A stretch of 64,000 bases of DNA from Nanobdellota archaeon (GCA_022703705.1 JAKLDD010000002.1:4597-68596), one strand, 5' to 3'. Positions 12,854-62,302 are shown, counted from the stretch's first letter. The notes: generated by a model from the letters alone, not told the origin. A program made the numbers and translations.

Positions 12854-13279
12854 TTAAAAATTATTTTTCTTTTCTAGTTTATCTAATTTATCTTGAACAT
12901 GATTAAAAAGAGTTGTTGAAATAATTGGGGGGTGTTTTCCTTCAGAAATTTGCCCATCAAACCTAACTTTACCAACATAAACAAAATTTCTTAAAATTTT
13001 TTTTAATCCATTAACTGAAAAATTATGCTTTTCTGCAATTTTAGACAAGTTCATTTCTGGATTCAAAAACTCTTCAAAAATTTCTTCTACTTCTCTGTAG
13101 TTTTGCGCTAAAATCAATGTTTTTTCTTTAAAATCCCATTCATATCCGAAAGGGGATCTCGACATATGTTTTCCTTCAGAAAATTTTTTTAGCATTCCCT
13201 TTTTTTGAGATTTTCCTCGATCTTCCAATTCAGGTTTTAATTCTATTTCAAATTCGTGTCCACATTTAGGGCATTTCAT
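12854..13279 (-). CDS. Zn-ribbon plus serine-recombinase 'Recombinase' (DNA-binding) domain protein, lacking the catalytic resolvase domain
   Basis: N-terminal CPKCGHEF. SPFGYEW..LILAQNYREVEEIFEEFLNPEMNLSKIAEKHNFSVNGLKKILRNFVYVGKV matches the PFGY..EA..V..IF..SL..IA..LN...I..IL.N..Y.G pattern of PF07508. ATGA overlap with the xerA stop. Confidence 0.65.
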   Translation of the reverse strand: MKCPKCGHEFEIELKPELEDRGKSQKKGMLKKFSEGKHMSRSPFGYEWDFKEKTLILAQNYREVEEIFEEFLNPEMNLSKIAEKHNFSVNGLKKILRNFVYVGKVRFDGQISEGKHPPIISTTLFNHVQDKLDKLEKKNNF

Positions 13280-14109
13280 TTCATTAATTCATCTATAGGG
13301 GATTTTATCTTCTTTAATTCTTCTGTTGATATATGAGTATAAATTTGTGTTGTTGAAAGATCTGCATGCCCAAGCAATTCTTGTATTTTTCTTATATCCG
13401 TCCCGTTTTCTAAAAGATGGGTGGCAAAACTATGCCTCAAAGTATGGCAATGAATTTCCTTGTTTATTCCTGCTCTTTTTGCTGCTTTTGAAACAATTTT
13501 TTGCAAATTTCTCTCTGAAAGTTTTCCTTTTATTCCAGTAAATAAATATATTTCTTTTTTTTCTTTCTGCTTTTCTACTTGTTTTTTTAAATCTTCTAAT
13601 AAAAAATCTGGAATGTTAAAAATTCTATCTTTTTTTCCTTTTCCTTGAAGAATTTTTCCTGTTTTTTCATTAAAGTCCAAGTCCCCAATTTTTAAATTGA
13701 TTAATTCGGATACCCTAAACCCACAGGCATACATTAAAGAAACCATAATTTTTGATTTTTTCGTGTCCAATACTTCAAATAATTTTTTTGCTTCTTCTTT
13801 TGTTAAAACCGTGGGCAATCTCTTTTCTCTTTTTGGACGTTTAATTCCCAGGGTAATGTCTTTTTTTAATATACCTAAAAAAGAATATTTTAAAGCTGAA
13901 AGAAAAATAATTATGGATGAGGAAGCTTTATCAGAAAGATTCTCTGAAATATATAATTTTACATCATCTGATTCTATTTTCTCTGGATTTTTTTTTATAA
14001 ATTCAAGAAATTTTTTATTTGAATCCAAATAATTTCTCAGTGTATATAATGAATTTTTTGAAATTTTCAGTTCAACCTCTAATTTTTTTAAAAAATCTTC
14101 TGGAGTCAT
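13276..14109 (-). CDS. xerA: tyrosine recombinase XerA/XerC/XerD family
   Basis: 277 aa. ACGFRVSEL (Arg I), HTLRHSFATHLL (H-x-x-R), LGHADLSTTQIYTH (catalytic Tyr), N-terminal SAM-like core-binding domain. Confidence 0.9.
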   Translation of the reverse strand: MTPEDFLKKLEVELKISKNSLYTLRNYLDSNKKFLEFIKKNPEKIESDDVKLYISENLSDKASSSIIIFLSALKYSFLGILKKDITLGIKRPKREKRLPTVLTKEEAKKLFEVLDTKKSKIMVSLMYACGFRVSELINLKIGDLDFNEKTGKILQGKGKKDRIFNIPDFLLEDLKKQVEKQKEKKEIYLFTGIKGKLSERNLQKIVSKAAKRAGINKEIHCHTLRHSFATHLLENGTDIRKIQELLGHADLSTTQIYTHISTEELKKIKSPIDELMK

Positions 14110-14965: not shown

Positions 14966-15460
14966 TTAGAAGGATTTTGGAGGTTTTGATAGTATTTCCT
15001 TAGTAATCTTAACAATTTGTTTTAATATTTTCGGATTTGTGGCCTTTTTTAAAAACTGTTCATCTTCTGTTGAAAATTGTCTTGCACTTAGGTTAGCTTT
15101 GTTATTTTTTGTTTGATATTCTTTGAAAGCCGGTGAATCTTTATGAACTAAAAGATACTCAAAAACATCCCCGAGGTTTTTCTGGTAGTCTTTAAACTGT
15201 TCTTCACTAATAAGAGCATATTCATGAAATTCATTTAAAGAGAGATTTCCATGTCTTTTTAAAAGAGGGAACCATACAGAAAGTTTCCCATCTTCTACAT
15301 AGTGAATTCCTAATGAATTTTCTTCAGGAATCTGAAATAATAAATGTGGGGCCATCATGTTTTGAAAATACTTTCCCTTGAAATTTTCAATTAATAAATC
15401 ATAAAGAGTGTGCTCATACGGGATTAGTTTTGGTTCTAAACCTTTTTTCATTTTATTCAT
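14966..15460 (-). CDS. hypothetical protein (164 aa)
   Basis: ORF with no recognised motif. Repeat R1 lies ~100 nt upstream. Confidence 0.55.
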   Translation of the reverse strand: MNKMKKGLEPKLIPYEHTLYDLLIENFKGKYFQNMMAPHLLFQIPEENSLGIHYVEDGKLSVWFPLLKRHGNLSLNEFHEYALISEEQFKDYQKNLGDVFEYLLVHKDSPAFKEYQTKNNKANLSARQFSTEDEQFLKKATNPKILKQIVKITKEILSKPPKSF

Positions 15461-15559: not shown

Positions 15560-15594
15560 TTCACCTGCCTTTTTGCACTTAGGTTAGGTAAGTT
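15560..15594. repeat. repeat R1 copy a (ttcacctgcc-ttttgcacttaggttaggtaagtt)
   Basis: The 24-nt core is identical to 16074-16097. It lies ~100 nt upstream of the start of gene 14966..15460. Confidence 0.8.
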
Positions 15595-16063: not shown

Positions 16064-16097
16064 TTCACCAGCATTTTGCACTTAGGTTAGGTAAGTT
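16064..16097. repeat. repeat R1 copy b
   Basis: ttcaccagca-ttttgcacttaggttaggtaagtt, at the same offset from the start of gene 15639..15959. Confidence 0.8.
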
Positions 16098-16122
16098 ATT
16101 TGTAATTAGTTTAATTTTAATG

Positions 16123-16150
16123 CGTTGGATGTGTTGGATGTGTTGGAATG
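16123..16150. repeat. repeat R2: three tandem 9-mers (gttggatgt gttggatgt gttggaatg)
   Basis: The 20-mer tgtgttggatgtgttggaat (16130-16149) recurs exactly at 17800-17819, inside a CDS. Confidence 0.8.
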
Positions 16151-16179
16151 CCAGTTAAAAATGTATAATTTACCTGTTT

Positions 16180-16311
16180 AAACAGCTGTTTGTTATATTT
16201 TATCGACGGAATAATAAAAATTAAAAAAACAAAAATTAATTAAAATTTAAGGTGTTTAAATGGCTGTTTAAATTTTAAACAGCTGTTTGCCACTGTTTAA
16301 ACAGGCTGTTT
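16180..16311. repeat. iteron cluster: 12-bp palindrome AAACAGCTGTTT (2 perfect + 2 degenerate copies)
   Basis: Perfect copies at 16180-16191 and 16277-16288. Variants aaatggctgttt at 16258-16269 and aaacaggctgttt at 16299-16311. Confidence 0.8.
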
Positions 16312-16470
16312 GTAGTTATTTTTTTACTATAAACATGGTTTTTTAACAATTTTTTAGCTTATTTTTTATTTATTTTTGTACCCTTTTTTTGTTTTTAAAT
16401 CAAAGAAAAATTTCGTTTTTCCCGATGAAAAAAACAAAACATTTTTAAACCGGTTTTTCTAATAGATATT

Positions 16471-17103
16471 ATGTTTAGATGGTTTTCTAAAAAAAAGGAT
16501 AAAAAAGAGCTTGAAGATATAAAAGAAGAAACAAAAAAAGGTTTTGATTTTGTAAAAAAAGATATTGCAACAGTAAGTGGATGGATTAAACACCTAGATT
16601 CTGAAAAAAAAATACAAGAAAAAGATATATTATCCATTAAAGAAGATTTGACGACGGTTAAAGAAGAATTAGAAGGATTAAAAAATGTTTTATCTATTAT
16701 GAATGATCTTAAACCCAAACAGCTGTTTAAAACAAACAAACAGCTGTTTAATAAACAAACAGCTGTTTATGCTGTCCAAACAGGTGTCCAAACAGGTGTC
16801 CAAACACCAAATTTAGGACAATTTTCTGTAACAGAAAGAGCGATTCTATGGGTGTTATTAAACACAGATATGAAACTAGGTTATGATGATCTTTCTACTA
16901 TGCTAGGAAAAGAAAAGAGCACAATAAGAGGTCAAATAAACTCCATAAAAGCAAAAAGTGAGGGTATAATAGAGGAAATTATTGAGACAAATGGCAAAAA
17001 AAGAGTGTTTATACCTGAAGAAATTAAAGAAAAACTACTAAAAAAGTCAAAAGTAAGGGTTGGACAGTCAAAAAACACCAAAAAAGTCAAAAGTGAGGAT
17101 TAG
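16471..17103 (+). CDS. coiled-coil / low-complexity linker / C-terminal wHTH DNA-binding protein (210 aa)
   Basis: N-terminal KKGFDFVKKDI..coiled coil, linker KQLFKTNKQLFNKQTAVYAVQTGVQTGVQT, and wHTH SVTERAILWVLLNTDMKLGYDDLSTMLGKEKSTIRGQINSIK. Paralog of 17328..18032. Confidence 0.65.
   Translation: MFRWFSKKKDKKELEDIKEETKKGFDFVKKDIATVSGWIKHLDSEKKIQEKDILSIKEDLTTVKEELEGLKNVLSIMNDLKPKQLFKTNKQLFNKQTAVYAVQTGVQTGVQTPNLGQFSVTERAILWVLLNTDMKLGYDDLSTMLGKEKSTIRGQINSIKAKSEGIIEEIIETNGKKRVFIPEEIKEKLLKKSKVRVGQSKNTKKVKSED
16717..16806. repeat. three more perfect AAACAGCTGTTT palindromes plus AAACAGGTGTCC x2, inside the CDS
   Basis: Perfect copies at 16717-16728, 16738-16749 and 16757-16768; ccaaacaggtgt x2 at 16776-16800. 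Confidence 0.8.
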
Positions 17104-17327: not shown

Positions 17328-18032
17328 TTAAAGCTCCCTTAACTGTAAAATTGTGCTTAAAGAAGCAATTTTCTTAAAGTTTGATGAAATAATCAATTGA
17401 ATATTTTTATTATTGATTTTAATTTTCTCGACGGGAATTCCTTTTTTAATTAACCTTCCAACATAATCCCTAATAGAGCTTTCAGTTAATTTTAGCTTTT
17501 GAGATAAATTCCTATAATCTGCATATCCTTCTTCTTCACAAGATTGATACAGTGCAGAAAAAACAGTCATTTCTTGATCTGTAAGTCGTTTAAATTTTAA
17601 ACGTATCTCTTTTTTTAGATTATCGAGAGAATCTAAAATTTTTACAGCATCTATTATGGGGCTTTCTTTTTCTTTATTATTGGTATTGTACGAACCTTTA
17701 TCTGTCTGTTGGTTTGTCTGTTGGTTTGTCTGTTTGTCTGTTGGAACCCCTACATTTCCAGTGGAAATACCTAAATTTTCATCCCTAAGGAGCCCAAAAT
17801 GTGTTGGATGTGTTGGAATTTGTGGTGAGGATGTTGAATTTTCTGATTTATGTGTTGGATCTTCTTTAAAATTTTCTTCTTTCTGCTTTATTGAAATTTT
17901 CTTTATTAATTCACATAATTCAATTAAACTTTGCCTATTTTCTTTTAATCCTTCTTTTAAAGAATCAACCTCTTTTCTCAAAATATCCATATCTTGTTTT
18001 ACCTTTGAAAATGCCTCTTTTATTTGTTCCAT
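17328..18032 (-). CDS. coiled-coil / low-complexity linker / C-terminal wHTH DNA-binding protein (234 aa), paralog of 16471..17103
   Basis: IKEAFSKVKQDMDILRKEVDSLKEGLKEN aligns with KKGFDFVKKDI..VKEELEGLKN. wHTH LTDQEMTVFSALYQSCEEEGYADYRNLSQKLKLTESSIRDYVGRLIKKG. The linker carries PTHPTH and TDKQTNQQTNQQTD repeats. Confidence 0.65.
   Translation of the reverse strand: MEQIKEAFSKVKQDMDILRKEVDSLKEGLKENRQSLIELCELIKKISIKQKEENFKEDPTHKSENSTSSPQIPTHPTHFGLLRDENLGISTGNVGVPTDKQTNQQTNQQTDKGSYNTNNKEKESPIIDAVKILDSLDNLKKEIRLKFKRLTDQEMTVFSALYQSCEEEGYADYRNLSQKLKLTESSIRDYVGRLIKKGIPVEKIKINNKNIQLIISSNFKKIASLSTILQLREL
17685..17695 (-). other. isolated Xer half-site GTTCGTACAAT inside the CDS linker
   Basis: 11-mer identical to 14125-14135, in the same orientation as the right arm of the dif-like site. 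The flanking would-be left arm is degenerate (5/11). Confidence 0.5.
17704..17744. repeat. tandem gtctgttggttt repeats (minus strand AAACCAACAGAC), related to the AAACAG half-iteron
   Basis: Two 12-mers plus two shorter units, encoding the QTNQQTNQQTD linker. Confidence 0.7.
17800..17819. repeat. repeat R2 second locus (exact 20-mer)
   Basis: tgtgttggatgtgttggaat is identical to 16130-16149 and encodes PTHPTH on the minus strand. Confidence 0.8.
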
Positions 18033-19230: not shown

Positions 19231-19316
19231 ATTGAAAATAAAAGTAATCAATTTATAAACTTTTCTGTAAAAATATATAGAGATTTGAATGTATAAAACA
19301 ATCAAAATTTAAATCC

Positions 19317-19341
19317 CACACCCTTTTGTTTCTTATGGAAA
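19317..19341 (-). promoter_or_regulatory. ORB-like box 1 (inverted): TTCCATAAGAAACAAAAGGGTGTG
   Basis: Dyad TTCCAnnnGAAAC plus a G/T-rich tail, comparable to archaeal ORB/mini-ORB elements (TTCCAGTGGAAAC type). Confidence 0.6.
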
Positions 19342-19394
19342 TATTTATAAATCAAAATGAAAAATTTTATTTTATTTATTTATTTATAAAAATT

Positions 19395-19426
19395 TATATT
19401 ATATATTATATATTATATATTATATT
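19395..19426. repeat. (TATATTA)n heptamer repeat, ~4.5 copies
   Basis: tt doublets recur every 7 nt at 19399, 19406, 19413 and 19420. Confidence 0.8.
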
Positions 19427-19437
19427 TTACTATTTTT

Positions 19438-19461
19438 AATAATAATAATAATAATAATAAT
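19438..19461. repeat. (AAT)8 microsatellite
   Basis: Read directly from the sequence. Confidence 0.9.
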
Positions 19462-19667
19462 AAAAGAATTAAAAGAATCAAAAACACTATAAAAGTAATA
19501 TAACAATAACATAACAAGAAGACATAATTAATAACATTCTATCAAAAACATAAAAATTATAATAATTATAATAAAAGAAATAATTAAAATTTTGGTAATA
19601 AATTAAAAATAACAGCTAAAATCTCAAAAACTTAAAAATAGCACTTAAAATTCAAAAAAACTAATCA

Positions 19668-19690
19668 TTCCATTAGAAACGTAGGTGTTT
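19668..19690 (+). promoter_or_regulatory. ORB-like box 2: TTCCATTAGAAACGTAGGTGTTT
   Basis: Same dyad and G/T tail, in the opposite orientation to box 1 across the AT-rich region. Confidence 0.6.
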
Positions 19691-19764
19691 CTCTTAATTA
19701 GTGGTTATAATTCTTTATATAAGAAATACATTTTTTTCATCGATAATTTAATTAATTTTAAATT

Positions 19765-19788
19765 TTCCACAGGAAATAAACGTGTGAG
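19765..19788 (+). promoter_or_regulatory. ORB-like box 3: TTCCACAGGAAATAAACGTGTGAG
   Basis: Same dyad, 30 nt upstream of the cdc6 ATG. GAGGT SD-like element at 19806-19810. Confidence 0.55.
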
Positions 19789-19817
19789 ATAATGAAATTA
19801 AAACGCGAGGTTAAAAG

Positions 19818-21029
19818 ATGAAAATAGATATTGAAAAAATTTTTGATACTTTTGATAAAAATGGAATTTTTAAAAACAAATCTTTATTACAATCAAATTA
19901 TACTCCAAATGAAATTCCCCATAGAGAAGAAGAAATAAAGCAGATTGCTTCTATCTTGGCTCCAGTATTGAGGGGAGAAAAAACAAGTAATTTATTTCTT
20001 TACGGGAAAACAGGAACAGGAAAAACCCTTTCTGTCCAATTTGTTCAAGAAGAATTAAATAAGCGAGTAAAAAAAGATTCAAATTTTAAATTAAAAATAG
20101 AATATTTAAATTGTAAATTAAAAAAGGTGTCTGATACAGAATATAGAATTTTAGCAGAATTAATTAAAAAAATGGGGGGGGAAGTTCCTCAAACAGGGCT
20201 TCCAACTCAAGCAGTATATAACAAATTTATAGAAACAATTGATTCTGAAAGGCAAGTAATAGTACTTATTTTAGATGAAATTGATCAAACAGTAAGGAAA
20301 ATTTCAAGCGATTTTTTGTATAATTTAATAAGATTAAATTCAGAACTTTCAAAATCCAAGCTTTGTATAGTTGGAATTAGCAATAATTTAACCTTTTTAG
20401 ATGAAATAGACCCCCGAGTAAGAAGTTCCCTTTCAGAAGAGGAAATTGTTTTTCACCCGTATGATGCTCTTCAATTGCAGGATATCTTAAATAAAAGGGC
20501 AAGAATGGCATTTAAAGAGGGAGTTATTCAGGAAGGGGTTGTTTCTAAATGTGCCGCATTTGCTGCAAGAGAGCACGGAGATGCAAGAAGAGCCCTAGAT
20601 TTACTTAGAATAGCTGGAGAGTTAGCAGAAAGAGACAATTCAGGTAAAATTTTAATAAAACATATAGATGAAGCAAATAATAAAATAGAAAAAGATAAGA
20701 TTTTAGATGTAATTCAATCAGAACCCAAACAATTTCAGTTAGTTTTAAAGGCAATTATTTATTTATCTGAAACTCAAAAAAACGAACCCATTTTTACAGG
20801 AGATGTTTATAATGTATATCAGGATTTTTGTTTAAGGCATAAACTAGAAGTATTAACCCAAAGGAGAGTGGGGGATATAATTCAAGAGTTTGATATGCAT
20901 GGAATAATTAATATAAAAGTTATTTCTAAGGGCCGGGGAGGGAGAATGAGAGAAATTAAATTAGCAATTCCAAAAGAGATTACAAAAAAAGCAAATGAAA
21001 TTGTTGAACACTCCTTAAATTATTTATAA
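19818..21029 (+). CDS. cdc6: Orc1/Cdc6 replication initiator
   Basis: IPHREEEIKQI.., Walker A YGKTGTGKT, Walker B LILDEID, sensor GISNN, GDARRALDLLR, and a C-terminal winged helix. Confidence 0.93.
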   Translation: MKIDIEKIFDTFDKNGIFKNKSLLQSNYTPNEIPHREEEIKQIASILAPVLRGEKTSNLFLYGKTGTGKTLSVQFVQEELNKRVKKDSNFKLKIEYLNCKLKKVSDTEYRILAELIKKMGGEVPQTGLPTQAVYNKFIETIDSERQVIVLILDEIDQTVRKISSDFLYNLIRLNSELSKSKLCIVGISNNLTFLDEIDPRVRSSLSEEEIVFHPYDALQLQDILNKRARMAFKEGVIQEGVVSKCAAFAAREHGDARRALDLLRIAGELAERDNSGKILIKHIDEANNKIEKDKILDVIQSEPKQFQLVLKAIIYLSETQKNEPIFTGDVYNVYQDFCLRHKLEVLTQRRVGDIIQEFDMHGIINIKVISKGRGGRMREIKLAIPKEITKKANEIVEHSLNYL

Positions 21030-21041
21030 TCTTTATTTAAA

Positions 21042-22664
21042 ATGGACACCAAAAAAATTTTGAAGTTTTGTTTAGAGAACGGATTATTGCTGGACAAAGA
21101 TGCTCTTGAATTATTTAGTGAAACTTGTAATACAGAATCCGTAAAACTAATCATTGAAAAAATAAAATCTTCAACAAAGCAAAAAATTATAACAAAAAAT
21201 ATTTTTTATGAAAATAAAGGGGAAATAATCAAATTTTTTTCAGATTTGCCAAAAGAAACCCAAAAAGAATTAGAAAGTTTAAAAATAAATCTGGGGCTAA
21301 GCATTGAAATTTCAAAGGAAAAAATCTCTTTAAATGAAAAAAAGCAAAATTACTCAGAGACAAAAAGCGATATAAAAATTCTTTCTCCTTTTCCCCCTGT
21401 TTCTTCTCAGGGGCATAAAATAGATGTGCAAGATTTTGTTAAATTTTTTAGAAATCGTTTTTTTGAAATGAAAAAAATTCTTCAGGGGCATTCTGAATTG
21501 GATAATCTCGTTTCTATAAATAAAATATTTGGAAATAGGCACGGAATTTCTATTATAGGGATGATTTGTAGTAAAAGTATTACAAAAAATAAAAATATGA
21601 TTTTTGAAGTTGAAGATTTTACCGGTAAAATAAAAATAATTGTGAGCAAAGAAAAGAAAGAATTGTATGAAAAGGCAGAAGAAATTTGTTTAGATTCTGT
21701 TTTGGGTTTTAAGGGTGCTGGAAATGGGGAGATTTTTTTTGCAAATGATATAATTTTTCCTGATGCAAACCTTGCAGAAAAGAAAAAGTCCCCGGAAGAA
21801 GAATATGCTTTATTTTTAGGGGATTTACATCTTGGAAGCAAGAGATTTTTCAAGCAGAGCTTTCTAAAATTTATAGATTATTTAAATGGCAATTTTCCAA
21901 ACACCCCCGAAGTTTACAAAATAAAGTACCTTTTTATAGTGGGCGATTTAGTTACTGGAATTGGAAATTATCCGAATCAAGAAGAAGATTTAGAGGTTGT
22001 AAATTTGGAAGAACAGTTTTCCTTGCTTGCCAATTTGCTTGGAAAAATAAGAAAAGATGTTAAAATAATTCTTTCGCCAGGAAATCACGATGGGGTACGA
22101 TTAATGGAACCGCAACCTCTTTTTGATGAAAAATATGCTTGGCCAATTTATAATCTGGAAAATGTAACAATAACTTCAAATCCTTGTTTTCTTAATTTTG
22201 GTTCTAAGGAAAATTTTGATGGGTTTAATGTCTTAACTTATCATGGATTTTCTTTTCAATACTATGCAAATTCTGTTCAAAAATTAATTCAAAAAAAAGC
22301 AATGAATTGTCCTGAAGAAATAATGAAATATGTTTTAAAACATAGGCATCTAGCCCCAACGCATGCCTCAACACAATACTTTCCTACTGAGGAAGATAAT
22401 TTATTAATAAAAGAAGTTCCAGATATTTTTGTATCTGCACACACTCACAAAAGCGGAGTTTCTGTTTATAATAATATTTTAATTATTTCAACTTCTTGCT
22501 GGGAAGCAATGACTCCTTACCAAGAAAAATTTGGAAATGAACCAGATCATTGCAAGGTTCCTATGCTTAATTTAAAAACTCGCGCTATCAAAATCTTAGA
22601 TTTTGAAGAAAATGAAAGAGGAGTAGATAAAAATTTGGAGATAAATTTAAATGAAAATAAATGA
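21042..22664 (+). CDS. DNA polymerase II (PolD) small subunit DP1
   Basis: OB-fold plus calcineurin-like phosphoesterase motifs: LFLGDLHLGS, FIVGDLV, SPGNHD, SAHTH. Confidence 0.9.
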   Translation: MDTKKILKFCLENGLLLDKDALELFSETCNTESVKLIIEKIKSSTKQKIITKNIFYENKGEIIKFFSDLPKETQKELESLKINLGLSIEISKEKISLNEKKQNYSETKSDIKILSPFPPVSSQGHKIDVQDFVKFFRNRFFEMKKILQGHSELDNLVSINKIFGNRHGISIIGMICSKSITKNKNMIFEVEDFTGKIKIIVSKEKKELYEKAEEICLDSVLGFKGAGNGEIFFANDIIFPDANLAEKKKSPEEEYALFLGDLHLGSKRFFKQSFLKFIDYLNGNFPNTPEVYKIKYLFIVGDLVTGIGNYPNQEEDLEVVNLEEQFSLLANLLGKIRKDVKIILSPGNHDGVRLMEPQPLFDEKYAWPIYNLENVTITSNPCFLNFGSKENFDGFNVLTYHGFSFQYYANSVQKLIQKKAMNCPEEIMKYVLKHRHLAPTHASTQYFPTEEDNLLIKEVPDIFVSAHTHKSGVSVYNNILIISTSCWEAMTPYQEKFGNEPDHCKVPMLNLKTRAIKILDFEENERGVDKNLEINLNENK

Positions 22665-23619
22665 TAGAGTTTATGGAAATCAAGAGATAAATGAAGCAAT
22701 TCTTTTGGATTTAATTAATTCTAATTCAATTAAGAGATTAAAAGACATTTCTCAAATAGGGATGCCAGATGAATATCTTTCTTTCTCAGGATTTTCTAGA
22801 TATGAACATTCTTTGGGGGTTATGATTCTTTTAAAAAGATTGAGGGCTAATTTAGAAGAACAAGTTGCCGGGTTATTACATGATATTTCTCATACCCCCT
22901 TTTCCCATGTTATAGATTGGGTTATTGGGGATCCAACTAAAGAAGATTATCAAGATAGTATTTTTAGGGAATTTTTAGAAAAATCAGATTCATTTGATAT
23001 TCTTAAAAAGCATAAATTAAACACAGAACTTATTTCAGATTTAAATAATTTTAAACTTTTGGAAAGAGAATCTCCGAAGTTGTGCGCGGATAGACTTGAC
23101 TATTCTTTGAGGCAAATTAGAATGGAAAAAGGCAAAGAATTGGCTAACAAAATTTTTGGAGATTTATGTGTTTATGAGAATCAAATTGCATTTAATAGTT
23201 TAGAAGTTGCAAGATTGTTCGGAAAAGAGTATATGAATCTTCAAACTCTTAGGTGGGCGGGAGATGAAATGAGAAGTAAATATTATATTTTATCTGAAAC
23301 ATTGAAAGAAGCATTGAATAAAAGTTTAATCGAATTTAATCAATTTTATGGGACAGAAAAACCCATTTTGAAAATTTTAAATAATTCAAACAATGAACTT
23401 ATTTTATCTAACTTAAACTTACTGAAAAAAGGTTTCTCTGTCATCGAAGATGAAAATGGAATAGAATTAAAAAAGAAGTTTAGATATGTTGATCCAGAAA
23501 TTAGAATGAATGGGGGGATTGTTTGTTTAAGCGATATTTGTGAGGATTATAAAAAACTTATTAATTATGAAAAAGAAAAAAATTTGGAGGTTAAGAAAAT
23601 AAAGATAATTCCTAATTAA
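22651..23619 (+). CDS. HD-domain phosphohydrolase (COG1078/SAMHD1-like family, short form)
   Basis: INDRVYGNQEI...IKRLKDISQIG, SRYEHSLGVMIL, LLHDISHTPFSH, CADRLDYSLR. 14-nt overlap with DP1 and a 1-nt gap to DP2. Confidence 0.75.
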   Translation: MKINDRVYGNQEINEAILLDLINSNSIKRLKDISQIGMPDEYLSFSGFSRYEHSLGVMILLKRLRANLEEQVAGLLHDISHTPFSHVIDWVIGDPTKEDYQDSIFREFLEKSDSFDILKKHKLNTELISDLNNFKLLERESPKLCADRLDYSLRQIRMEKGKELANKIFGDLCVYENQIAFNSLEVARLFGKEYMNLQTLRWAGDEMRSKYYILSETLKEALNKSLIEFNQFYGTEKPILKILNNSNNELILSNLNLLKKGFSVIEDENGIELKKKFRYVDPEIRMNGGIVCLSDICEDYKKLINYEKEKNLEVKKIKIIPN

Positions 23620-23620
23620 A

Positions 23621-26600
23621 ATGAACACCCAAGAATATTTTGAAAATCTTAAGAAGGAAATCGATAAAATATATTTAATTGCAGAAAAAGCTAGAGCAAA
23701 AGGATATGACCCTGCAAATGAGGTGGAAATTCCCTTAGCAATGAGTATGGCAGAAAAGGTTGTTGGTTTAATTTCTACAATATATCCTCAAATGAAAAAT
23801 TCTGGAATTGCAGAAAGGATTCTTGAGCTTGAAAAAGAATATGGGAAATTGGATACAACAATTGTATTTAAGATTGCAGAAGAAGTTGCAAAACAAAAAT
23901 TTTGCAAATTTAAGGATCTTCTCGAATCAATGGATGCTGGAATAAGAGTTGGCTTTGCTTATGCTACCTTGGGGGTAGTTTCAAGCCCAATAGAAGGATT
24001 CACTGGATTAAAAATAAGAAAAACGAGAAACAATCAAGAATATATTGAAGCAAGTTTTTCAGGCCCAATTAGAAGTGCAGGAACAACTGCAAGTTGTATT
24101 GTTTTAATTTTAATTGACTATCTAAGGGAGATATTTGGATTTGCTAAATATGATCCCACAGAAGAAGAAATCAAAAGAATGTATTCTGAAATGGAACATT
24201 TTCATGAAAGGGTTGCAAATTTGCAGTATATGCCTACAGAAAAAGAGGCAAATTTTTTAGCAAAAAATCTTCCAATTCAAATTGCAGGAGATGCTTCTGA
24301 AAAAATTGAAGTTCCAAATTATAAAAATTTGGAAAGAGTGGATACAAATTATTTGAGGAGTGGTTTTTGTTTAATTATCGGGGAAGGGCTTGCCCAAAAA
24401 GCAGCAAAAGGATTTAGGTTGTTAAATATTTCAAAGAAAAATGGGATAAAATCAACGGGGTTTGATTTTTTAGAAGAATATATAAAAATTCATGAAAAAA
24501 GGGCAAAAGGAAAAAAAGATGAAACTCCTGTTTATATGAAAGATTTGGTTGCCGGAAGACCTGTTTTTGGGCATCCTGCAAAATCTGGGGGTTTTAGGTT
24601 TAGATATGGAAGAGGAAGGGTTTCAGGATTTAGTGCAACTTCTTTGCATCCTGCAACAATGGCTATAACTGACGACTTTATTGCAATTGGAACACAATTA
24701 AAACTTGAAAAACCAACTAAAGGTTGTGTAGCTACTGTTTGTGATTCAATAGAAGGACCGATAGTCAAATTGTTTAATGGGAGTGTAAAAAAGTTAAATT
24801 CTTTAGAAGAAGCTAAATTAATTTATCCAGATGTAGATGAAATTATTTATTTAGGAGACATTTTGTTTCCATTTAGTGATGTTTTAAACAGAAATGCGCA
24901 GCTTATAAAACCGGGGTATGTTGAAGAGTGGTGGAAATTGGATTTGATGGAAAAAAACAATCTGGAAAAAATAGATTGTTTTAATATTTCTCTAGACAAA
25001 GCAATTGAATTAAGTGAGAATTATTCTATTCCATTACACCCAAAATATATTTTTTATTGGACAGAATTATCTAAAGAATATTTCTTGGATTTAATTGATT
25101 GGTTAATTGTTTCAAAATATGACAAAAAAATAATTTTTCCATATAATAAAACTGAAAGAGAAAAATTTAAGCTGGGAAAACGTGCCTTGGAGTTGCTGGG
25201 CATAGAACATCAAGTAACTTTAGAAAATGTTGTTTTGAACGAAATTACCAGCAAGGCTCTTCTTCTTAATCTTGGTATTAATATTCCCCATGAAGAATTT
25301 TTATTTAAAGAGCTAATTTTTAAGGAAAAGTATTTGTTAGACAAAAATGTTTTAGAAATTATTAATTCTGTTTCTAATTTTAAAATAAAAGATAAGGCGG
25401 GAGAGTTTATTGGAGCTAGAATGGGCAGGCCAGAAAAAGCAAAATTAAGAAAATTAATTGGGGGTCCAAATGTTTTATTTCCTGTTGGAAAAGAGGGGGG
25501 AAGATTGAGGAGTTTTCAAGCAGCTTGTGGAGAAGGAGAAGTTTTTGGAAGCTTTCCTATTTATTATTGTGAAAAGTGCAACCAGGAAACAATCTATCCT
25601 ATTTGTGAATCTTGTGAAAATAAATGTAAAAAAATGTATTATTTTCCTGAATTAAAAGAAAAAGCATTTGTTAAAATAAAAGAGGGGATTGAGAAAGGAG
25701 GAGTTCCTTACATGAATAAGAGGATAAATATTCAGCATTATTTTGAAAGTGCAATAAAAAAATTAGGTTATTCTAAAGAGCAAATACCCCCATTAATTAA
25801 AGGAGTTAGAGGAACTTCTTCAGAAAATCATTCCATAGAAAATTTTGCAAAAGGGATGATAAGAGCAAAATATAATTTACAAGTAAATAAAGATGGAACA
25901 ATAAGATTTGATGCAACAGAACTTCCCATAACATCTTTTAAGCCAAAAGAAATTTTTGTGGGTGTTGAAAAATTGAGGGAATTGGGTTACGATAAAGATA
26001 TTTTTGGTAATGAATTAATAAATGAAGACCAAATCCTAGAGCTTTTACCCCATGATGTTTTGCTTCCAATTTCTTCAGACTCTCTTGATGAAAAAGCAGA
26101 TGATATCTTTTTTAAGGTTTCAAAATTTGTTGATGAAGAATTAGAAAAATTTTATGGATTAGGAAAGTTTTATGATTTAAAAGAAAAACAAGATTTGGTT
26201 GGGCAAATTGGGGTTTGCATGGCCCCCCATAATTGTGCAGGGGTAGTTTGTAGATTTATTGGATTCTCAAACACTCAAGGCCTTTTTGCAAGTCCGTATA
26301 TGCACGCAGCAATAAGGAGGGATTGTGATGGGGATGAAGCAGCAGTTATGTTGCTGGGTGATGTATTAATTAATTTTTCAAGAGAATTTTTACCAAGTCA
26401 CCGGGGGGGAACCCAAGATGCCCCGCTTGTTTTAAATGCAAAAATAGATGCTGGTGAAGTTGATGATCAAATTTTAGATTTTGAATTTTTAAACGAATAC
26501 CCTATTGAATTGTACAGGTTTTCAGAGGAAAAAAGGCATTCCTCAGAAGTAAAATTAAATACTGTAAAAGAAATTCTAAAAAAAGGGGAAGATCCTTTTA

Positions 26601-27073
26601 AAGGAGTTGGATTTACTCACTCTACTAACAATTTTAATGAGGGGGTTTTGTGTTCTTCATATAAAAGACTTTTAACTATGCAAGATAAAGTAGGGCATCA
26701 AATGGAATTAGTAGAAAAACTTCGTTCTGTTGACACTGCAGATACTGCACGCCTTATTATTGATAGACATTTTATCAGGGATATTAGAGGTAATCTTAGA
26801 AAATTTTCAATGCAAGAATTTAGGTGTGTTGCTTGTAATGAAATTGTAAGAAGGCCCCCTCTTGAAGGGGTTTGCCCGAAGTGTCGCGGAAAATTAATTT
26901 TTACAATTCATGAAGGGGGAATAAAAAAATATCTTGATTCGGCATTGGACTTGGCAAAAAAATATAATCTTTCTTCTTATTTGCAGCAAAATCTTGAACT
27001 TGTTAAAAGATACATAGATGCTGTTTTTGGTAAAGAATTGGAAAAGCAAAAAGCTTTAGCAGATTATTTTTAA
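23621..27073 (+). CDS. DNA polymerase II (PolD) large subunit DP2
   Basis: 1150 aa. Motifs GRPVFGHPAKSGGFRFRYGR, ARMGRPEKA, IRRDCDGDEAA, and Zn fingers CEKCN..CESC and CVACN..CPKC. Confidence 0.93.
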   Translation: MNTQEYFENLKKEIDKIYLIAEKARAKGYDPANEVEIPLAMSMAEKVVGLISTIYPQMKNSGIAERILELEKEYGKLDTTIVFKIAEEVAKQKFCKFKDLLESMDAGIRVGFAYATLGVVSSPIEGFTGLKIRKTRNNQEYIEASFSGPIRSAGTTASCIVLILIDYLREIFGFAKYDPTEEEIKRMYSEMEHFHERVANLQYMPTEKEANFLAKNLPIQIAGDASEKIEVPNYKNLERVDTNYLRSGFCLIIGEGLAQKAAKGFRLLNISKKNGIKSTGFDFLEEYIKIHEKRAKGKKDETPVYMKDLVAGRPVFGHPAKSGGFRFRYGRGRVSGFSATSLHPATMAITDDFIAIGTQLKLEKPTKGCVATVCDSIEGPIVKLFNGSVKKLNSLEEAKLIYPDVDEIIYLGDILFPFSDVLNRNAQLIKPGYVEEWWKLDLMEKNNLEKIDCFNISLDKAIELSENYSIPLHPKYIFYWTELSKEYFLDLIDWLIVSKYDKKIIFPYNKTEREKFKLGKRALELLGIEHQVTLENVVLNEITSKALLLNLGINIPHEEFLFKELIFKEKYLLDKNVLEIINSVSNFKIKDKAGEFIGARMGRPEKAKLRKLIGGPNVLFPVGKEGGRLRSFQAACGEGEVFGSFPIYYCEKCNQETIYPICESCENKCKKMYYFPELKEKAFVKIKEGIEKGGVPYMNKRINIQHYFESAIKKLGYSKEQIPPLIKGVRGTSSENHSIENFAKGMIRAKYNLQVNKDGTIRFDATELPITSFKPKEIFVGVEKLRELGYDKDIFGNELINEDQILELLPHDVLLPISSDSLDEKADDIFFKVSKFVDEELEKFYGLGKFYDLKEKQDLVGQIGVCMAPHNCAGVVCRFIGFSNTQGLFASPYMHAAIRRDCDGDEAAVMLLGDVLINFSREFLPSHRGGTQDAPLVLNAKIDAGEVDDQILDFEFLNEYPIELYRFSEEKRHSSEVKLNTVKEILKKGEDPFKGVGFTHSTNNFNEGVLCSSYKRLLTMQDKVGHQMELVEKLRSVDTADTARLIIDRHFIRDIRGNLRKFSMQEFRCVACNEIVRRPPLEGVCPKCRGKLIFTIHEGGIKKYLDSALDLAKKYNLSSYLQQNLELVKRYIDAVFGKELEKQKALADYF

Positions 27074-62209: not shown

Positions 62210-62302
62210 AGCCCCATAGTACAGTGGTCAAGTATACGGCCCTTTGGTGTTATTAAGTAATGGAGAAAGGCCGGGACCTCGGTTCGAATCCGAGTGGGGC
62301 TA
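62210..62302 (+). tRNA. tRNA-Gln (anticodon TTG at 62244-62246) with a 20-nt intron at the canonical 37/38 position (62248-62267)
   Basis: Hand-folded: acceptor AGCCCCA/TGGGGCT (A1-U72, typical of archaeal tRNA-Gln), D-arm GTAC AGTGGTCAA GTAT, anticodon stem CGGCC/GGCCG interrupted by tgttattaagtaatggagaa, T-arm CTCGG TTCGAAT CCGAG. Confidence 0.85.

What the first reader, a model, noticed from the sequence alone, without database searches (positions are those of the whole stretch)
19306..19817. Predicted oriC: three ORB-like boxes in inverted arrangement around an AT-rich DUE upstream of cdc6-PolD
**ORB-like boxes**
- TTCCATAAGAAACAAAAGGGTGTG (minus strand, 19317-19341).
- TTCCATTAGAAACGTAGGTGTTT (plus strand, 19668-19690).
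- TTCCACAGGAAATAAACGTGTGAG (plus strand, 19765-19788).

All three share the dyad TTCCA-N3-GAAA(C/T) and a G/T-rich tail. They resemble archaeal origin recognition boxes of the TTCCAGTGGAAAC type.

**Context**
- They flank about 325 bp of nearly pure A/T that includes (TATATTA)4.5 and (AAT)8.
- The adjacent operon is orc1/cdc6-DP1-DP2, the arrangement known from Pyrococcus oriC.
- Genes to the left (12.8-19.3 kb) are mostly on the minus strand. Genes to the right (19.8-27 kb) are on the plus strand, consistent with divergent replication.
Basis: partly seen in the sequence, partly recalled or inferred. Interest (0 to 1): 0.6.

Follow-up and report, generated by a model that had tools for sequence, protein, structure and literature searches.

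The report
Predicted replication origin of a Pacearchaeota archaeon
The stretch upstream of the orc1/cdc6 gene of this tiny DPANN archaeon has the parts of a classical archaeal chromosome replication origin, laid out the same way in about 80 related species; this is a well-supported but ordinary example, with one oddity: a fourth initiator-type box written inside a nearby gene.

Summary
Three TTCCA-N3-GAAA boxes lie at 19317-19340(-), 19668-19690(+) and 19765-19788(+). Boxes 1 and 2 are inverted around a 327-bp, 90% A+T spacer, the least stable duplex in the 64 kb.

The interpretation (oriC) is supported by comparison, not by experiment.
- 79 of 81 loci (80 relatives plus the window) keep boxes 2 and 3, spaced 96-100 bp.
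- The inverted box 1 lies across an 88% A+T spacer of 81-670 bp in nearly all loci with enough upstream sequence.
- The adjacent gene is an Orc1-1-class initiator with its DNA-contact residues conserved.
- Third-codon A/T skew switches polarity inside the window, best fitted about 7 kb to the left, so it supports the region, not the exact site.
- Read-depth evidence was uninformative.

New here:
- An archaeal TATA box sits at a fixed position between boxes 2 and 3, so the orc1 promoter is probably embedded in the origin.
- A fourth, most canonical box (17743-17769, minus strand) lies inside the disordered linker of a coiled-coil/winged-helix gene. Its synonymous sites are frozen across 48 species. 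It is followed by (ACAG)n and is not always next to orc1.

Verdict: a new member of a known kind.

The parts
19317..19340 (-). ORB1: TTCCATAAGAAACAAAAGGGTGTG. It is inverted relative to ORB2 and ORB3. The dyad faces the DUE and the G-rich tail points away from it.
   Evidence: 36.9 bits with the box-1 matrix. It was found in nearly every relative with enough upstream sequence. Consensus: TTAAATaTTTC(C/T)AtAnGAAAynAaGGGGTGaG.
19341..19667 (.). A+T-rich spacer, the predicted duplex-unwinding element. It contains (TTTA)5, (TATATTA)5 and (TAA)9.
   Evidence: It is 89.6% A+T and the least stable duplex in the 64 kb at all three window sizes. In 60 relatives the equivalent spacer is 81-670 bp (median 230) and 88% A+T, against 70% for the loci as a whole.
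19668..19690 (+). ORB2: TTCCATTAGAAACGTAGGTGTTT. The dyad faces the DUE. A conserved tail extends to about 19706.
   Evidence: It is conserved in 79 of 81 loci, with the box-specific tail AGGTGTTyTTCTTT.
19700..19722 (+). Highly conserved block AGTGGTTATAATTCTTTATATAA, holding a canonical archaeal TATA box (TTTATATA, 19714-19721). Reading it as the orc1 promoter is my inference.
   Evidence: Near-invariant columns in the 79-sequence alignment. It sits at a fixed distance from ORB2 (46 nt) and ORB3 (about 51 nt). That it is a promoter rests on general knowledge of archaeal BRE/TATA promoters; no RNA data could be obtained.
19736..19746 (+). Predicted transcription start region (conserved TTTTTnTCG), about 24-27 nt after the TATA box.
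   Evidence: Conserved in the alignment. The position is inferred from the usual TATA-to-start distance in archaea and was not tested.
19765..19788 (+). ORB3: TTCCACAGGAAATAAACGTGTGAG. It has the same orientation as ORB2 and starts 97 bp downstream of the ORB2 start. It would lie in the predicted 5' leader of orc1.
   Evidence: 41.6 bits. ORB2-ORB3 spacing is 96-100 bp in 79 of 81 loci. Its distance to the orc1 ATG varies from 24 to 135 nt among relatives.
19818..21029 (+). orc1/cdc6, the cognate initiator (403 aa). A GAGGT Shine-Dalgarno motif lies at 19807-19811.
   Evidence: Pfam Cdc6_lid and Cdc6_C. NCBIfam TIGR02928, 417 bits. Best solved relatives are S. solfataricus Orc1-1 (2QBY_A, 1.6e-106) and A. 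pernix ORC1 (2V1U, 1.5e-87). The ISM 'TGL', helix 'QRR' and wing 'GR' contact residues are conserved (against PMC3089459).
21042..27073 (+). Downstream genes in the same direction: PolD small subunit DP1 (21042-22664), an HD-domain protein (22651-23619) and PolD large subunit DP2 (23621-27073).
   Evidence: Pfam hits.
17743..17769 (-). ORB4: TATTTCCACTGGAAATGTAGGGGTTCC. This fourth box is the most canonical of the four and has the same orientation as ORB1. It lies inside the coding sequence of gene 17328-18032(-), where it encodes I-S-T-G-N-V-G-V-P.
   Evidence: It is the only other site of 12 bits or more in the window, scoring 28.6 bits with a matrix built from the relatives' intergenic boxes alone. 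It is present at -1.7 to -3.5 kb from orc1 in 52 relatives, always on the minus strand. Synonymous sites are frozen: top-codon fraction 0.98 against 0.62 in the rest of the gene, Mann-Whitney p = 4e-8. There is no third-position relaxation. It shares 16 consecutive bases (TTCCA-S-TGGAAATGAA) with P. furiosus ORB1 as printed in PMC1904270.
17702..17744 (-). Degenerate (ACAG)n / ACAAAC tract directly after ORB4, encoding T-D-K/R-Q repeats. Relatives have a purer (ACAG)5-9.
   Evidence: The codons GAC, CAG and ACA are fixed although GAT and CAA are the preferred codons elsewhere in the gene.
17799..17859 (-). Three copies of T(C/T)C(A/G)ACA(C/G)A(T/C) (here TCCAACACAT) upstream of ORB4 in the same reading frame, encoding P-T-H repeats.
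   Evidence: In relatives, 109 of 132 motif occurrences in 44 loci fall within this gene. In the loci listed, copies recur at offsets of 72 and 12 nt from the copy in the ORB4 tail.
17328..18032 (-). Host gene of ORB4: a 234-aa protein with an N-terminal long helix (2-54), a disordered linker (55-120, which encodes ORB4 and the repeats) and a C-terminal MarR-like winged helix (125-233).
   Evidence: 2391 homologues; the origin-linked and pattern-matched genomic copies are all from DPANN archaea. AlphaFold2 model with mean pLDDT 76.6 and a linker below 50. Foldseek hits are MarR-family proteins. Pfam HTH_36 and DnaD_N reach threshold in some homologues.

Best explanation
This is the chromosomal replication origin (an oriC1-type, Orc1-dependent origin) of a Pacearchaeota/Nanoarchaeota (DPANN) archaeon.

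Proposed mechanism, inferred by analogy with Sulfolobus, Aeropyrum and Pyrococcus:
1. Monomers of the Orc1-1-class initiator encoded at 19818-21029 bind ORB1 (minus strand) and ORB2 (plus strand) with defined polarity.
2. The two boxes are inverted, so both initiators face the 327-bp A+T-rich spacer.
3. ATP-bound Orc1 recruits MCM onto that spacer, which melts.
4. Forks leave in both directions.

ORB3 lies a fixed 96-100 bp from ORB2. Together they bracket a canonical TATA box. The orc1-polD promoter is therefore probably embedded in the origin, with its activity coupled to Orc1 occupancy (inferred).

A fourth box, ORB4, lies 1.55 kb to the left inside a gene. It belongs to the same motif family and is under nucleotide-level selection. 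It is most likely an additional Orc1 site, comparable to the intragenic dp1 ORB cluster of Thermococcales, but its role is open.

Shown here: the motifs, their arrangement, their conservation, the instability of the spacer, the class of the initiator, and a composition switch within the window. Inferred: binding, unwinding, MCM loading and autoregulation.
For: - **Clustering:** three core motifs fall in 512 bp, against 3.2 expected in the whole window. Only four weight-matrix hits occur in 64 kb.
- **Conservation:** 79 of 81 loci keep ORB2 and ORB3 at 96-100 bp spacing. The inverted ORB1 is present in nearly all loci with enough upstream sequence. Each box has its own conserved tail.
- **Spacer:** it is the least stable duplex in the window. 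The equivalent spacers in 60 relatives are 88% A+T against 70% for the loci overall.
- **Initiator:** it is closest to Sso Orc1-1 and Ape ORC1 rather than Orc1-2 or Orc1-3. The residues shown to matter for ORB binding are conserved (PMC3089459).
- **Motif identity:** ORB4 and ORB1 match the Pyrococcus ORB (TTCCAGTGGAAATGAA...GGGG) printed in PMC1904270.
- **Architecture:** it matches Sulfolobus oriC1, which has three ORBs, two of them inverted around the DUE, with orc1-1 adjacent (PMC12141716).
- **Composition:** strand-corrected third-position A/T skew changes polarity inside the window. Delta logL is 51.6 against no switch, or 21 after scaling for overdispersion. The plus strand is T- and G-enriched to the right, as expected for a leading strand.
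- **Gene orientation:** co-orientation of genes is maximal for a split at 19-20 kb.
- **Chromosomal context:** core genes surround the site, including ribosomal proteins, XerA, RadA and PolD.
Against: - The best-fitting skew switch is at 12.0 kb (support region 7.25-13.5 kb). A switch at 19.5 kb is disfavoured by a scaled delta logL of -4.3. The cumulative GC-skew minimum is at 10-11 kb.
- The 11 genes between 12 and 19.3 kb show no net skew.
- There is no experimental evidence of any kind. The public runs are held only as low-depth contigs, whose depth dips at the site instead of peaking. No RNA runs were available.
- Possession of an ORB/orc1 locus does not prove use. In Thermococcus kodakarensis, Cdc6 and the presumed origin were studied for genome replication independent of them (PMC5663688, title and abstract only).
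- ORB4 is not always near orc1. In 60 further genomes with at least 3 kb of room, only 30 have orc1 in the same stretch. About 6 more have an origin-like A+T-rich region or ORB 3-5.4 kb away.
Confidence: 0.8

Rival explanations
1. The boxes are operator sites only. Orc1, or another factor, binds them to control the divergent promoters of the orc1-polD operon and the PRC-barrel gene, and replication does not start here.
For: ORB2 and ORB3 bracket a canonical TATA box at fixed spacing. Orc1-family proteins can act as transcription regulators, as Orc1-2 does (PMC9738581). The skew switch fits better about 7 kb away. ORB4 occurs in a gene that is not always origin-linked.
Against: This does not explain a conserved, variable-length, 88% A+T spacer flanked by inverted boxes with their dyads facing inward. 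The initiator is of the Orc1-1 class, not the Orc1-2 regulator class. In every archaeon studied, regulation and origin function coexist at this type of locus (PMC4010727).
Confidence: 0.1
2. The true initiation zone lies near 8-13 kb, where the composition switch fits best. The ORB cluster at 19.3-19.8 kb would be a secondary initiator-binding or titration site.
For: The AT3 change-point is at 12.0 kb with support 7.25-13.5 kb. The cumulative GC-skew minimum is at 10-11 kb.
Against: There is no ORB-like site of 12 bits or more, and no unusually A+T-rich region, between 7 and 17 kb. That zone holds a tRNA, ribosomal-protein genes and xerA. The estimate rests on about 16 short genes with overdispersed composition (dispersion 2.4), including highly expressed ribosomal-protein genes whose codon bias distorts skew. 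The likelihood is nearly flat between 7 and 19.5 kb compared with the gain over no switch.
Confidence: 0.05
3. This is a chance cluster of short A/T-biased motifs in an A+T-rich intergenic region.
For: The core is only 9 specified bases, and the whole-window count (6 against 3.2 expected) is not significant on its own.
Against: Three cores in 512 bp has P of about 3e-6. The same three boxes, with box-specific tails, orientation and 96-100 bp spacing, recur in 79 of 81 loci.
Confidence: 0.01

Closest known systems
Sulfolobus (Saccharolobus) oriC1 with Orc1-1
   Same: Both have three ORB elements next to the initiator gene. Two of them are inverted around an A+T-rich DUE, and each is thought to bind one Orc1-1 monomer with defined polarity (PMC12141716). 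The window's Orc1 is most similar to Sso Orc1-1, with the same DNA-contact residues.
   Different: - The spacer here is 327 bp (81-670 bp in relatives), against about 130 bp for the whole ORB3-DUE-ORB2 unit.
- I did not look for a ucm/UBP equivalent.
- The third ORB is on the gene-proximal side at a fixed 96-100 bp, with a TATA box between the two.
- A fourth box lies inside a gene 1.55 kb away.
Pyrococcus/Thermococcales oriC-cdc6-dp1-dp2 locus
   Same: The gene order is oriC, cdc6, PolD DP1, DP2. The ORB core is nearly identical: 16 consecutive bases are shared between ORB4's consensus and P. furiosus ORB1. Both have an ORB inside a coding sequence near the origin that is conserved across an order (PMC1904270).
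   Different: - There is no ORB cluster in dp1 here or in the relatives: no hit of 12 bits or more in the window's dp1, and none of 18 bits or more downstream of the orc1 start in the relatives.
- The intragenic box is on the other side of the origin, in a winged-helix gene.
- No swarm of 13-bp mini-ORBs is present.
- An HD-domain gene separates DP1 from DP2.
- The G-string follows the dyad after 3 nt instead of 8.
Aeropyrum pernix oriC1 (from my own knowledge: two ORBs on each side of the DUE)
   Same: Counting ORB4, the layout is two boxes per side with opposite polarity: ORB4 and ORB1 on the minus strand, ORB2 and ORB3 on the plus strand.
   Different: The left pair is 1.55 kb apart and separated by three genes. 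ORB4 is not always linked to the origin in related genomes.
Haloarchaeal downstream ORB cluster that negatively regulates oriC2 (Haloarcula hispanica)
   Same: It is precedent for ORB elements outside the core origin that modulate initiation (PMC4010727).
   Different: That cluster is intergenic and multi-copy. ORB4 is a single box, occasionally duplicated in relatives, and lies in a coding sequence.

Membership tests
Archaeal Orc1/Cdc6-dependent replication origin (oriC1 type) | Repeated ORB or mini-ORB elements matching the TTCCA...GAAA(C/T) core, with or without a G-rich extension | tested here: met
   Three boxes in 512 bp plus a fourth 1.55 kb away. The core is identical to the published Pyrococcus ORB over 16 nt (PMC1904270).
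Archaeal Orc1/Cdc6-dependent replication origin (oriC1 type) | At least two ORBs in inverted orientation flanking an A+T-rich unwinding element | tested here: met
   ORB1(-) and ORB2(+) flank 327 bp of 89.6% A+T, the least stable duplex in 64 kb. The same arrangement holds in the relatives.
Archaeal Orc1/Cdc6-dependent replication origin (oriC1 type) | Immediately adjacent orc1/cdc6 gene of the initiator (Orc1-1) class | tested here: met
   Pfam and NCBIfam hits. Best solved relatives are 2QBY_A and 2V1U. The ISM, HTH and wing contact residues are conserved.
Archaeal Orc1/Cdc6-dependent replication origin (oriC1 type) | Conservation of the element in related genomes | tested here: met
   79 of 81 loci keep ORB2 and ORB3. 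ORB1 is present in nearly all loci with enough upstream sequence.
Archaeal Orc1/Cdc6-dependent replication origin (oriC1 type) | Strand-composition (skew) polarity switch at the site | tested here: inconclusive
   A strong origin-type switch lies inside the window, but its best fit is at 12 kb (support 7.25-13.5 kb). A switch at 19.5 kb has a scaled delta logL of -4.3. Complete contigs could not be fetched.
Archaeal Orc1/Cdc6-dependent replication origin (oriC1 type) | Read-depth (marker-frequency) maximum at the site | tested here: inconclusive
   Only Logan contigs at 4-12x depth are held. Depth falls near the A+T-rich region in all four runs, which is probably sequencing or assembly bias.
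Archaeal Orc1/Cdc6-dependent replication origin (oriC1 type) | Specific Orc1 binding and mapped initiation (EMSA, footprint, ChIP, 2D gel, RIP mapping) | not testable with these tools
   The organism is uncultured and no such data exist.
Thermococcales-type origin locus | Second ORB/mini-ORB cluster inside the dp1 gene | tested here: not met
   No weight-matrix hit of 12 bits or more falls in the window's dp1. No hit of 18 bits or more lies downstream of the orc1 start in the 80 relatives.
Thermococcales-type origin locus | Gene order oriC-cdc6-dp1-dp2 | tested here: met
   with an extra HD-domain gene between dp1 and dp2.

The most novel reading that the evidence does not exclude
ORB4 with its flanking repeats is a dual-use stretch of DNA. 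A protein-binding element is written into the disordered linker of a conserved coiled-coil/winged-helix gene and is held constant at synonymous sites across more than 120 DPANN species. It might be an Orc1 landing site, possibly combined with iteron- or centromere-like TCSACACAT and (ACAG)n repeats bound by the gene's own product. It could act as an initiator-titration or origin-organising locus, comparable to datA or to parS inside parB, and so mark a previously unrecognised origin-associated factor in Nanoarchaeota.
Probability: 0.2. Interest if true: 0.7.

Novelty: new member of a known kind. Interest (0 to 1): 0.42.

Why it matters
DPANN archaea are uncultured or hard to culture, and in the papers I could search their replication origins have not been described. 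A 2026 preprint simply rotates 208 complete Nanobdellota genomes to the orc1 gene and contains no ORB or skew analysis (10.64898/2026.05.13.725050).

A conserved, explicit origin architecture gives:
- a defined coordinate for genome rotation;
- a target for growth-rate (peak-to-trough) estimates from metagenomes;
- a likely explanation for why many MAG contigs break just upstream of orc1.

It also extends the ORB/Orc1-1 system, essentially unchanged, to one of the most reduced archaeal lineages.

The intragenic ORB4 is a clean natural example of a DNA element overriding codon choice. It is a testable lead to an extra origin-associated protein.

Tried and rejected
- **Read depth across the origin.** Laying each side separately showed only short Logan contigs at 4-12x, with a dip near the origin and no usable gradient.
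- **RNA evidence for the predicted promoter.** No RNA run could be listed.
- **Bacterial-type promoter and terminator scan.** No better than shuffles, and not applicable to archaea.
- **Plain cumulative GC skew.** It mostly tracks gene orientation, so I replaced it with strand-corrected third-position skew. The GC3 version was too weak to place a switch.
- **Integrated element as the cause of the flat skew at 12-16 kb.** I suspected this because of the tRNA and the tyrosine recombinase. I rejected it: the recombinase is XerA, the neighbours are ribosomal proteins, and no att-like tRNA repeat was found.
- **A specific replication role for the ORB4 host protein.** Fold search gave only generic MarR/ArsR winged helices. 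The Pfam DnaD_N and HTH_36 hits are marginal.
- **ORB4 as an obligatory part of the origin.** Weakened, because about 24 of 60 further genomes with the exact ORB4+(ACAG)n pattern and at least 3 kb of room show no orc1, ORB or A+T-rich region within the 3-7.8 kb available.
- **Whole-contig skew in relatives with contigs of 350-620 kb.** Not possible, because only up to 10 kb of flank can be fetched.

Full report
**What is in the sequence**

- 19317-19340(-): TTCCATAAGAAACAAAAGGGTGTG
- 19668-19690(+): TTCCATTAGAAACGTAGGTGTTT
- 19765-19788(+): TTCCACAGGAAATAAACGTGTGAG

The 12-nt core TTCCANNNGAAA occurs six times in the window on both strands, against 3.2 expected. Three of these lie in this 512-bp stretch, which by Poisson arithmetic has a probability of about 3e-6.

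The 327 bp between boxes 1 and 2 are 89.6% A+T. They contain (TTTA)5, (TATATTA)5 and (TAA)9. This is the least stable duplex of the whole 64 kb at 100-, 200- and 300-bp scales.

The flanking genes are as follows:
- a PRC-barrel gene on the minus strand;

**Organism and relatives**

The Orc1 protein finds 74-89% identical homologues in 80 species-level genomes. All are DPANN MAGs labelled Pacearchaeota, Woesearchaeota or Nanoarchaeota. Public runs that hold the sequence come from anaerobic digesters, wastewater, landfill and groundwater.

The architecture is repeated in these relatives:
- ORB3(+) lies 24-135 nt before the orc1 ATG.
- ORB2(+) lies 96-100 bp upstream of ORB3 in 79 of 81 loci.
- An inverted ORB1(-) lies across an A+T-rich spacer of 81-670 bp (median 230; 88% A+T against 70% for the loci) in nearly every locus with enough upstream sequence.

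Each box has its own conserved tail:
- ORB1: AaGGGGTGaG
- ORB2: AGGTGTTyTTCTTT
- ORB3: GTGTGnG

Twenty-four of the 80 contigs end within 700 bp upstream of orc1. In several MAGs the ORB4 gene sits on a different contig. The A+T-rich spacer therefore seems to break short-read assemblies.

**The initiator**

By sequence, the protein is closest to S. solfataricus Orc1-1 (2QBY_A, 1.6e-106) and A. pernix ORC1 (2V1U, 1.5e-87). Orc1-3 (2.8e-51) and ORC2 (5.9e-15) are well behind.

The alignment shows conservation of the ISM Gly-Leu, the recognition-helix Arg and the wing Arg. Mutation of these residues reduces ORB binding in Sulfolobus (PMC3089459).

The boxes themselves match published ORBs. P. furiosus ORB1, read from the oligonucleotide printed in PMC1904270, is TTCCAGTGGAAATGAAACTCTGGGGGG.

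**Comparison with known origins**

Sulfolobus oriC1 has three ORBs. Each binds one Orc1-1 with defined polarity. ORB2 and ORB3 are inverted around the DUE, and the orc1-1 gene is adjacent (PMC12141716).

Here ORB1 and ORB2 are the inverted pair. In both, the dyad faces the spacer and the G-rich tail points away.

The gene order oriC-cdc6-dp1-dp2 is that of Pyrococcus. The second ORB cluster that Thermococcales carry inside dp1 (PMC1904270) is absent here and in the relatives.

**New detail 1: a promoter inside the origin**

The 98-bp interval between ORB2 and ORB3 contains the most conserved non-coding block of the locus, AGTrGTyATAAnnnTTTATATAA. A canonical archaeal TATA box lies at 19714-19721, followed by TTTTTnTCG where a start site would be expected.

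I infer that this is the orc1 promoter. ORB2 abuts it and ORB3 lies in the leader. This would explain the fixed spacing and suggests coupling between Orc1 occupancy and orc1-polD transcription.

This is inference only, because no RNA data could be found. In S. islandicus, ORB mutations did not change Orc1-1 levels (PMC12141716).

**New detail 2: a fourth box inside a gene**

A weight matrix built only from the relatives' intergenic boxes finds one further site in the window: 17743-17769(-), TATTTCCACTGGAAATGTAGGGGTTCC. It lies in the middle of a 234-aa ORF (17328-18032, minus strand) and encodes ISTGNVGVP.

It is present in 52 relatives at -1.7 to -3.5 kb from orc1, always in the ORB1 orientation.

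Codon analysis of 48 orthologues shows nucleotide-level selection:
- In the ORB4/(ACAG)n block the commonest codon accounts for 98% of conserved residues, against 62% elsewhere in the gene (Mann-Whitney p = 4e-8).
- The fixed codons (TCC, GGG, GAC, CAG) are the non-preferred ones.
- Information content per codon position is 1.45/1.59/1.55 in the block, against 1.18/1.54/0.60 in the winged-helix domain.

ORB4 is followed by (ACAG)n, read as TDRQ repeats. It is preceded by copies of TCSACACAT; in the loci listed, copies recur at offsets of 72 and 12 nt. A triple TCCAACRCAT also occurs in non-coding DNA at 16120-16148(-).

The AlphaFold2 model places all of this in a disordered linker (residues 55-120, pLDDT below 50). 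The linker joins a long N-terminal helix to a MarR-like winged helix. The least constrained part of the protein is therefore the most constrained part of the DNA.

All but one are labelled as DPANN or unclassified archaea; one short contig is labelled 'bacterium'.

ORB4 is not strictly origin-linked, however. Among 60 such loci with at least 3 kb of room, 30 contain orc1 (median distance 2.1 kb, orientation consistent in 33 of 33). About 6 have an ORB or an A+T-rich region 3-5.4 kb away. About 24 have nothing within the room available.

The closest precedent is the Cdc6-bound intragenic ORB cluster in Thermococcales dp1 (PMC1904270). The function here is unknown.

**Composition and orientation**

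Plain GC skew follows gene direction. After separating coding bias from strand bias, third-position A/T skew differs strongly between the two gene classes (p about 1e-7).

A change-point model finds a polarity switch inside the window. Delta logL is 51.6 against no switch, or 21 after scaling for overdispersion. The plus strand is T-enriched to the right, which is the origin type of switch on the usual assumption that leading strands are G- and T-rich.

The best position is 12.0 kb (support 7.25-13.5 kb). A switch at 19.5 kb is disfavoured by a scaled delta logL of -4.3. Genes between 12 and 19.3 kb show no net skew. They include ribosomal-protein genes and xerA and several very short genes.

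Gene co-orientation is maximal for a split at 19-20 kb, but only weakly.

I read this as support for an origin in this part of the chromosome. I also read it as the main reason not to go above 0.8 confidence.

**What could not be done**

Depth-based marker-frequency analysis was not possible: only low-depth contigs are held, and depth dips at the A+T-rich region. Whole-contig skew in relatives and any binding or initiation assay were also out of reach.

**Verdict**

For the origin itself this is a new member of a known kind. The intragenic, synonymously frozen ORB4 with its repeats is an unexplained and more interesting appendix.

Noticed in passing
It lies inside a coding sequence, in the disordered linker of a coiled-coil/winged-helix protein. 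Its synonymous sites are frozen across 48 species, and it is followed by (ACAG)n, which encodes TDRQ repeats.
   Followed up: yes
window 16120-16148 (-) and 17799-17859 (-): The motif TCCAACRCAT occurs three times in tandem in non-coding DNA at 16120-16148. It also occurs three times inside the ORB4 gene, where it encodes PTH repeats. In relatives it is concentrated in that gene (109 of 132 occurrences in 44 loci).
   Followed up: partly
window 16170-16320: An array of near-palindromic AAACAGCTGTTTAAAC-type sites (perfect copies at 16177-16192 and 16274-16289). It lies in the intergenic region between divergent small genes and looks like an operator array.
   Followed up: no
window 16471-17103 (+): A second gene with the same architecture as the ORB4 host: N-terminal coiled coil, a repeat linker (VQTGVQTGVQT) and a C-terminal winged-helix-like domain. 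It has no ORB. It may be a paralogue.
   Followed up: no
window 15571-15594 and 16074-16097 (83% copy at 15080-15103): A perfect 24-nt direct repeat, TTTTGCACTTAGGTTAGGTAAGTT, lies about 110 nt upstream of each of two consecutive small minus-strand genes.
   Followed up: no
window 13276-14109 (-): An archaeal XerA tyrosine recombinase gene (NF040815, 242 bits) lies about 5-6 kb from the predicted origin. From my own recollection, not checked here, xerA also sits near oriC in Thermococcales.
   Followed up: partly
window about 7-13.5 kb: Strand-corrected third-position A/T skew switches polarity here, about 7 kb left of the ORB/DUE cluster. Genes at 12-19.3 kb have no net skew.
   Followed up: yes
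L001-L080, upstream of orc1: Twenty-four of the 80 relatives' contigs end within 700 bp upstream of orc1, including contigs of 160-350 kb. In several MAGs the ORB4 gene is on another contig. The A+T-rich spacer appears to break short-read assemblies.
   Followed up: partly
window 22651-23619 (+): An HD-domain gene is inserted between the PolD small and large subunit genes and overlaps the end of DP1 by 14 nt.
   Followed up: no
window 62210-62302 (+): A 93-nt tRNA (Rfam, 53 bits) for which ARAGORN reports a four-base anticodon (tttg) and no identity. It is probably an intron-containing archaeal tRNA.
   Followed up: no
L015 (-1867/-1808) and L061 (-2444/-2385); L082, L095, L126, L137, L148: Some relatives carry an extra plus-strand ORB 59 bp from ORB4, forming a convergent pair. 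Others carry a second ORB4-like box 43 or 72 nt away in the same orientation.
   Followed up: no
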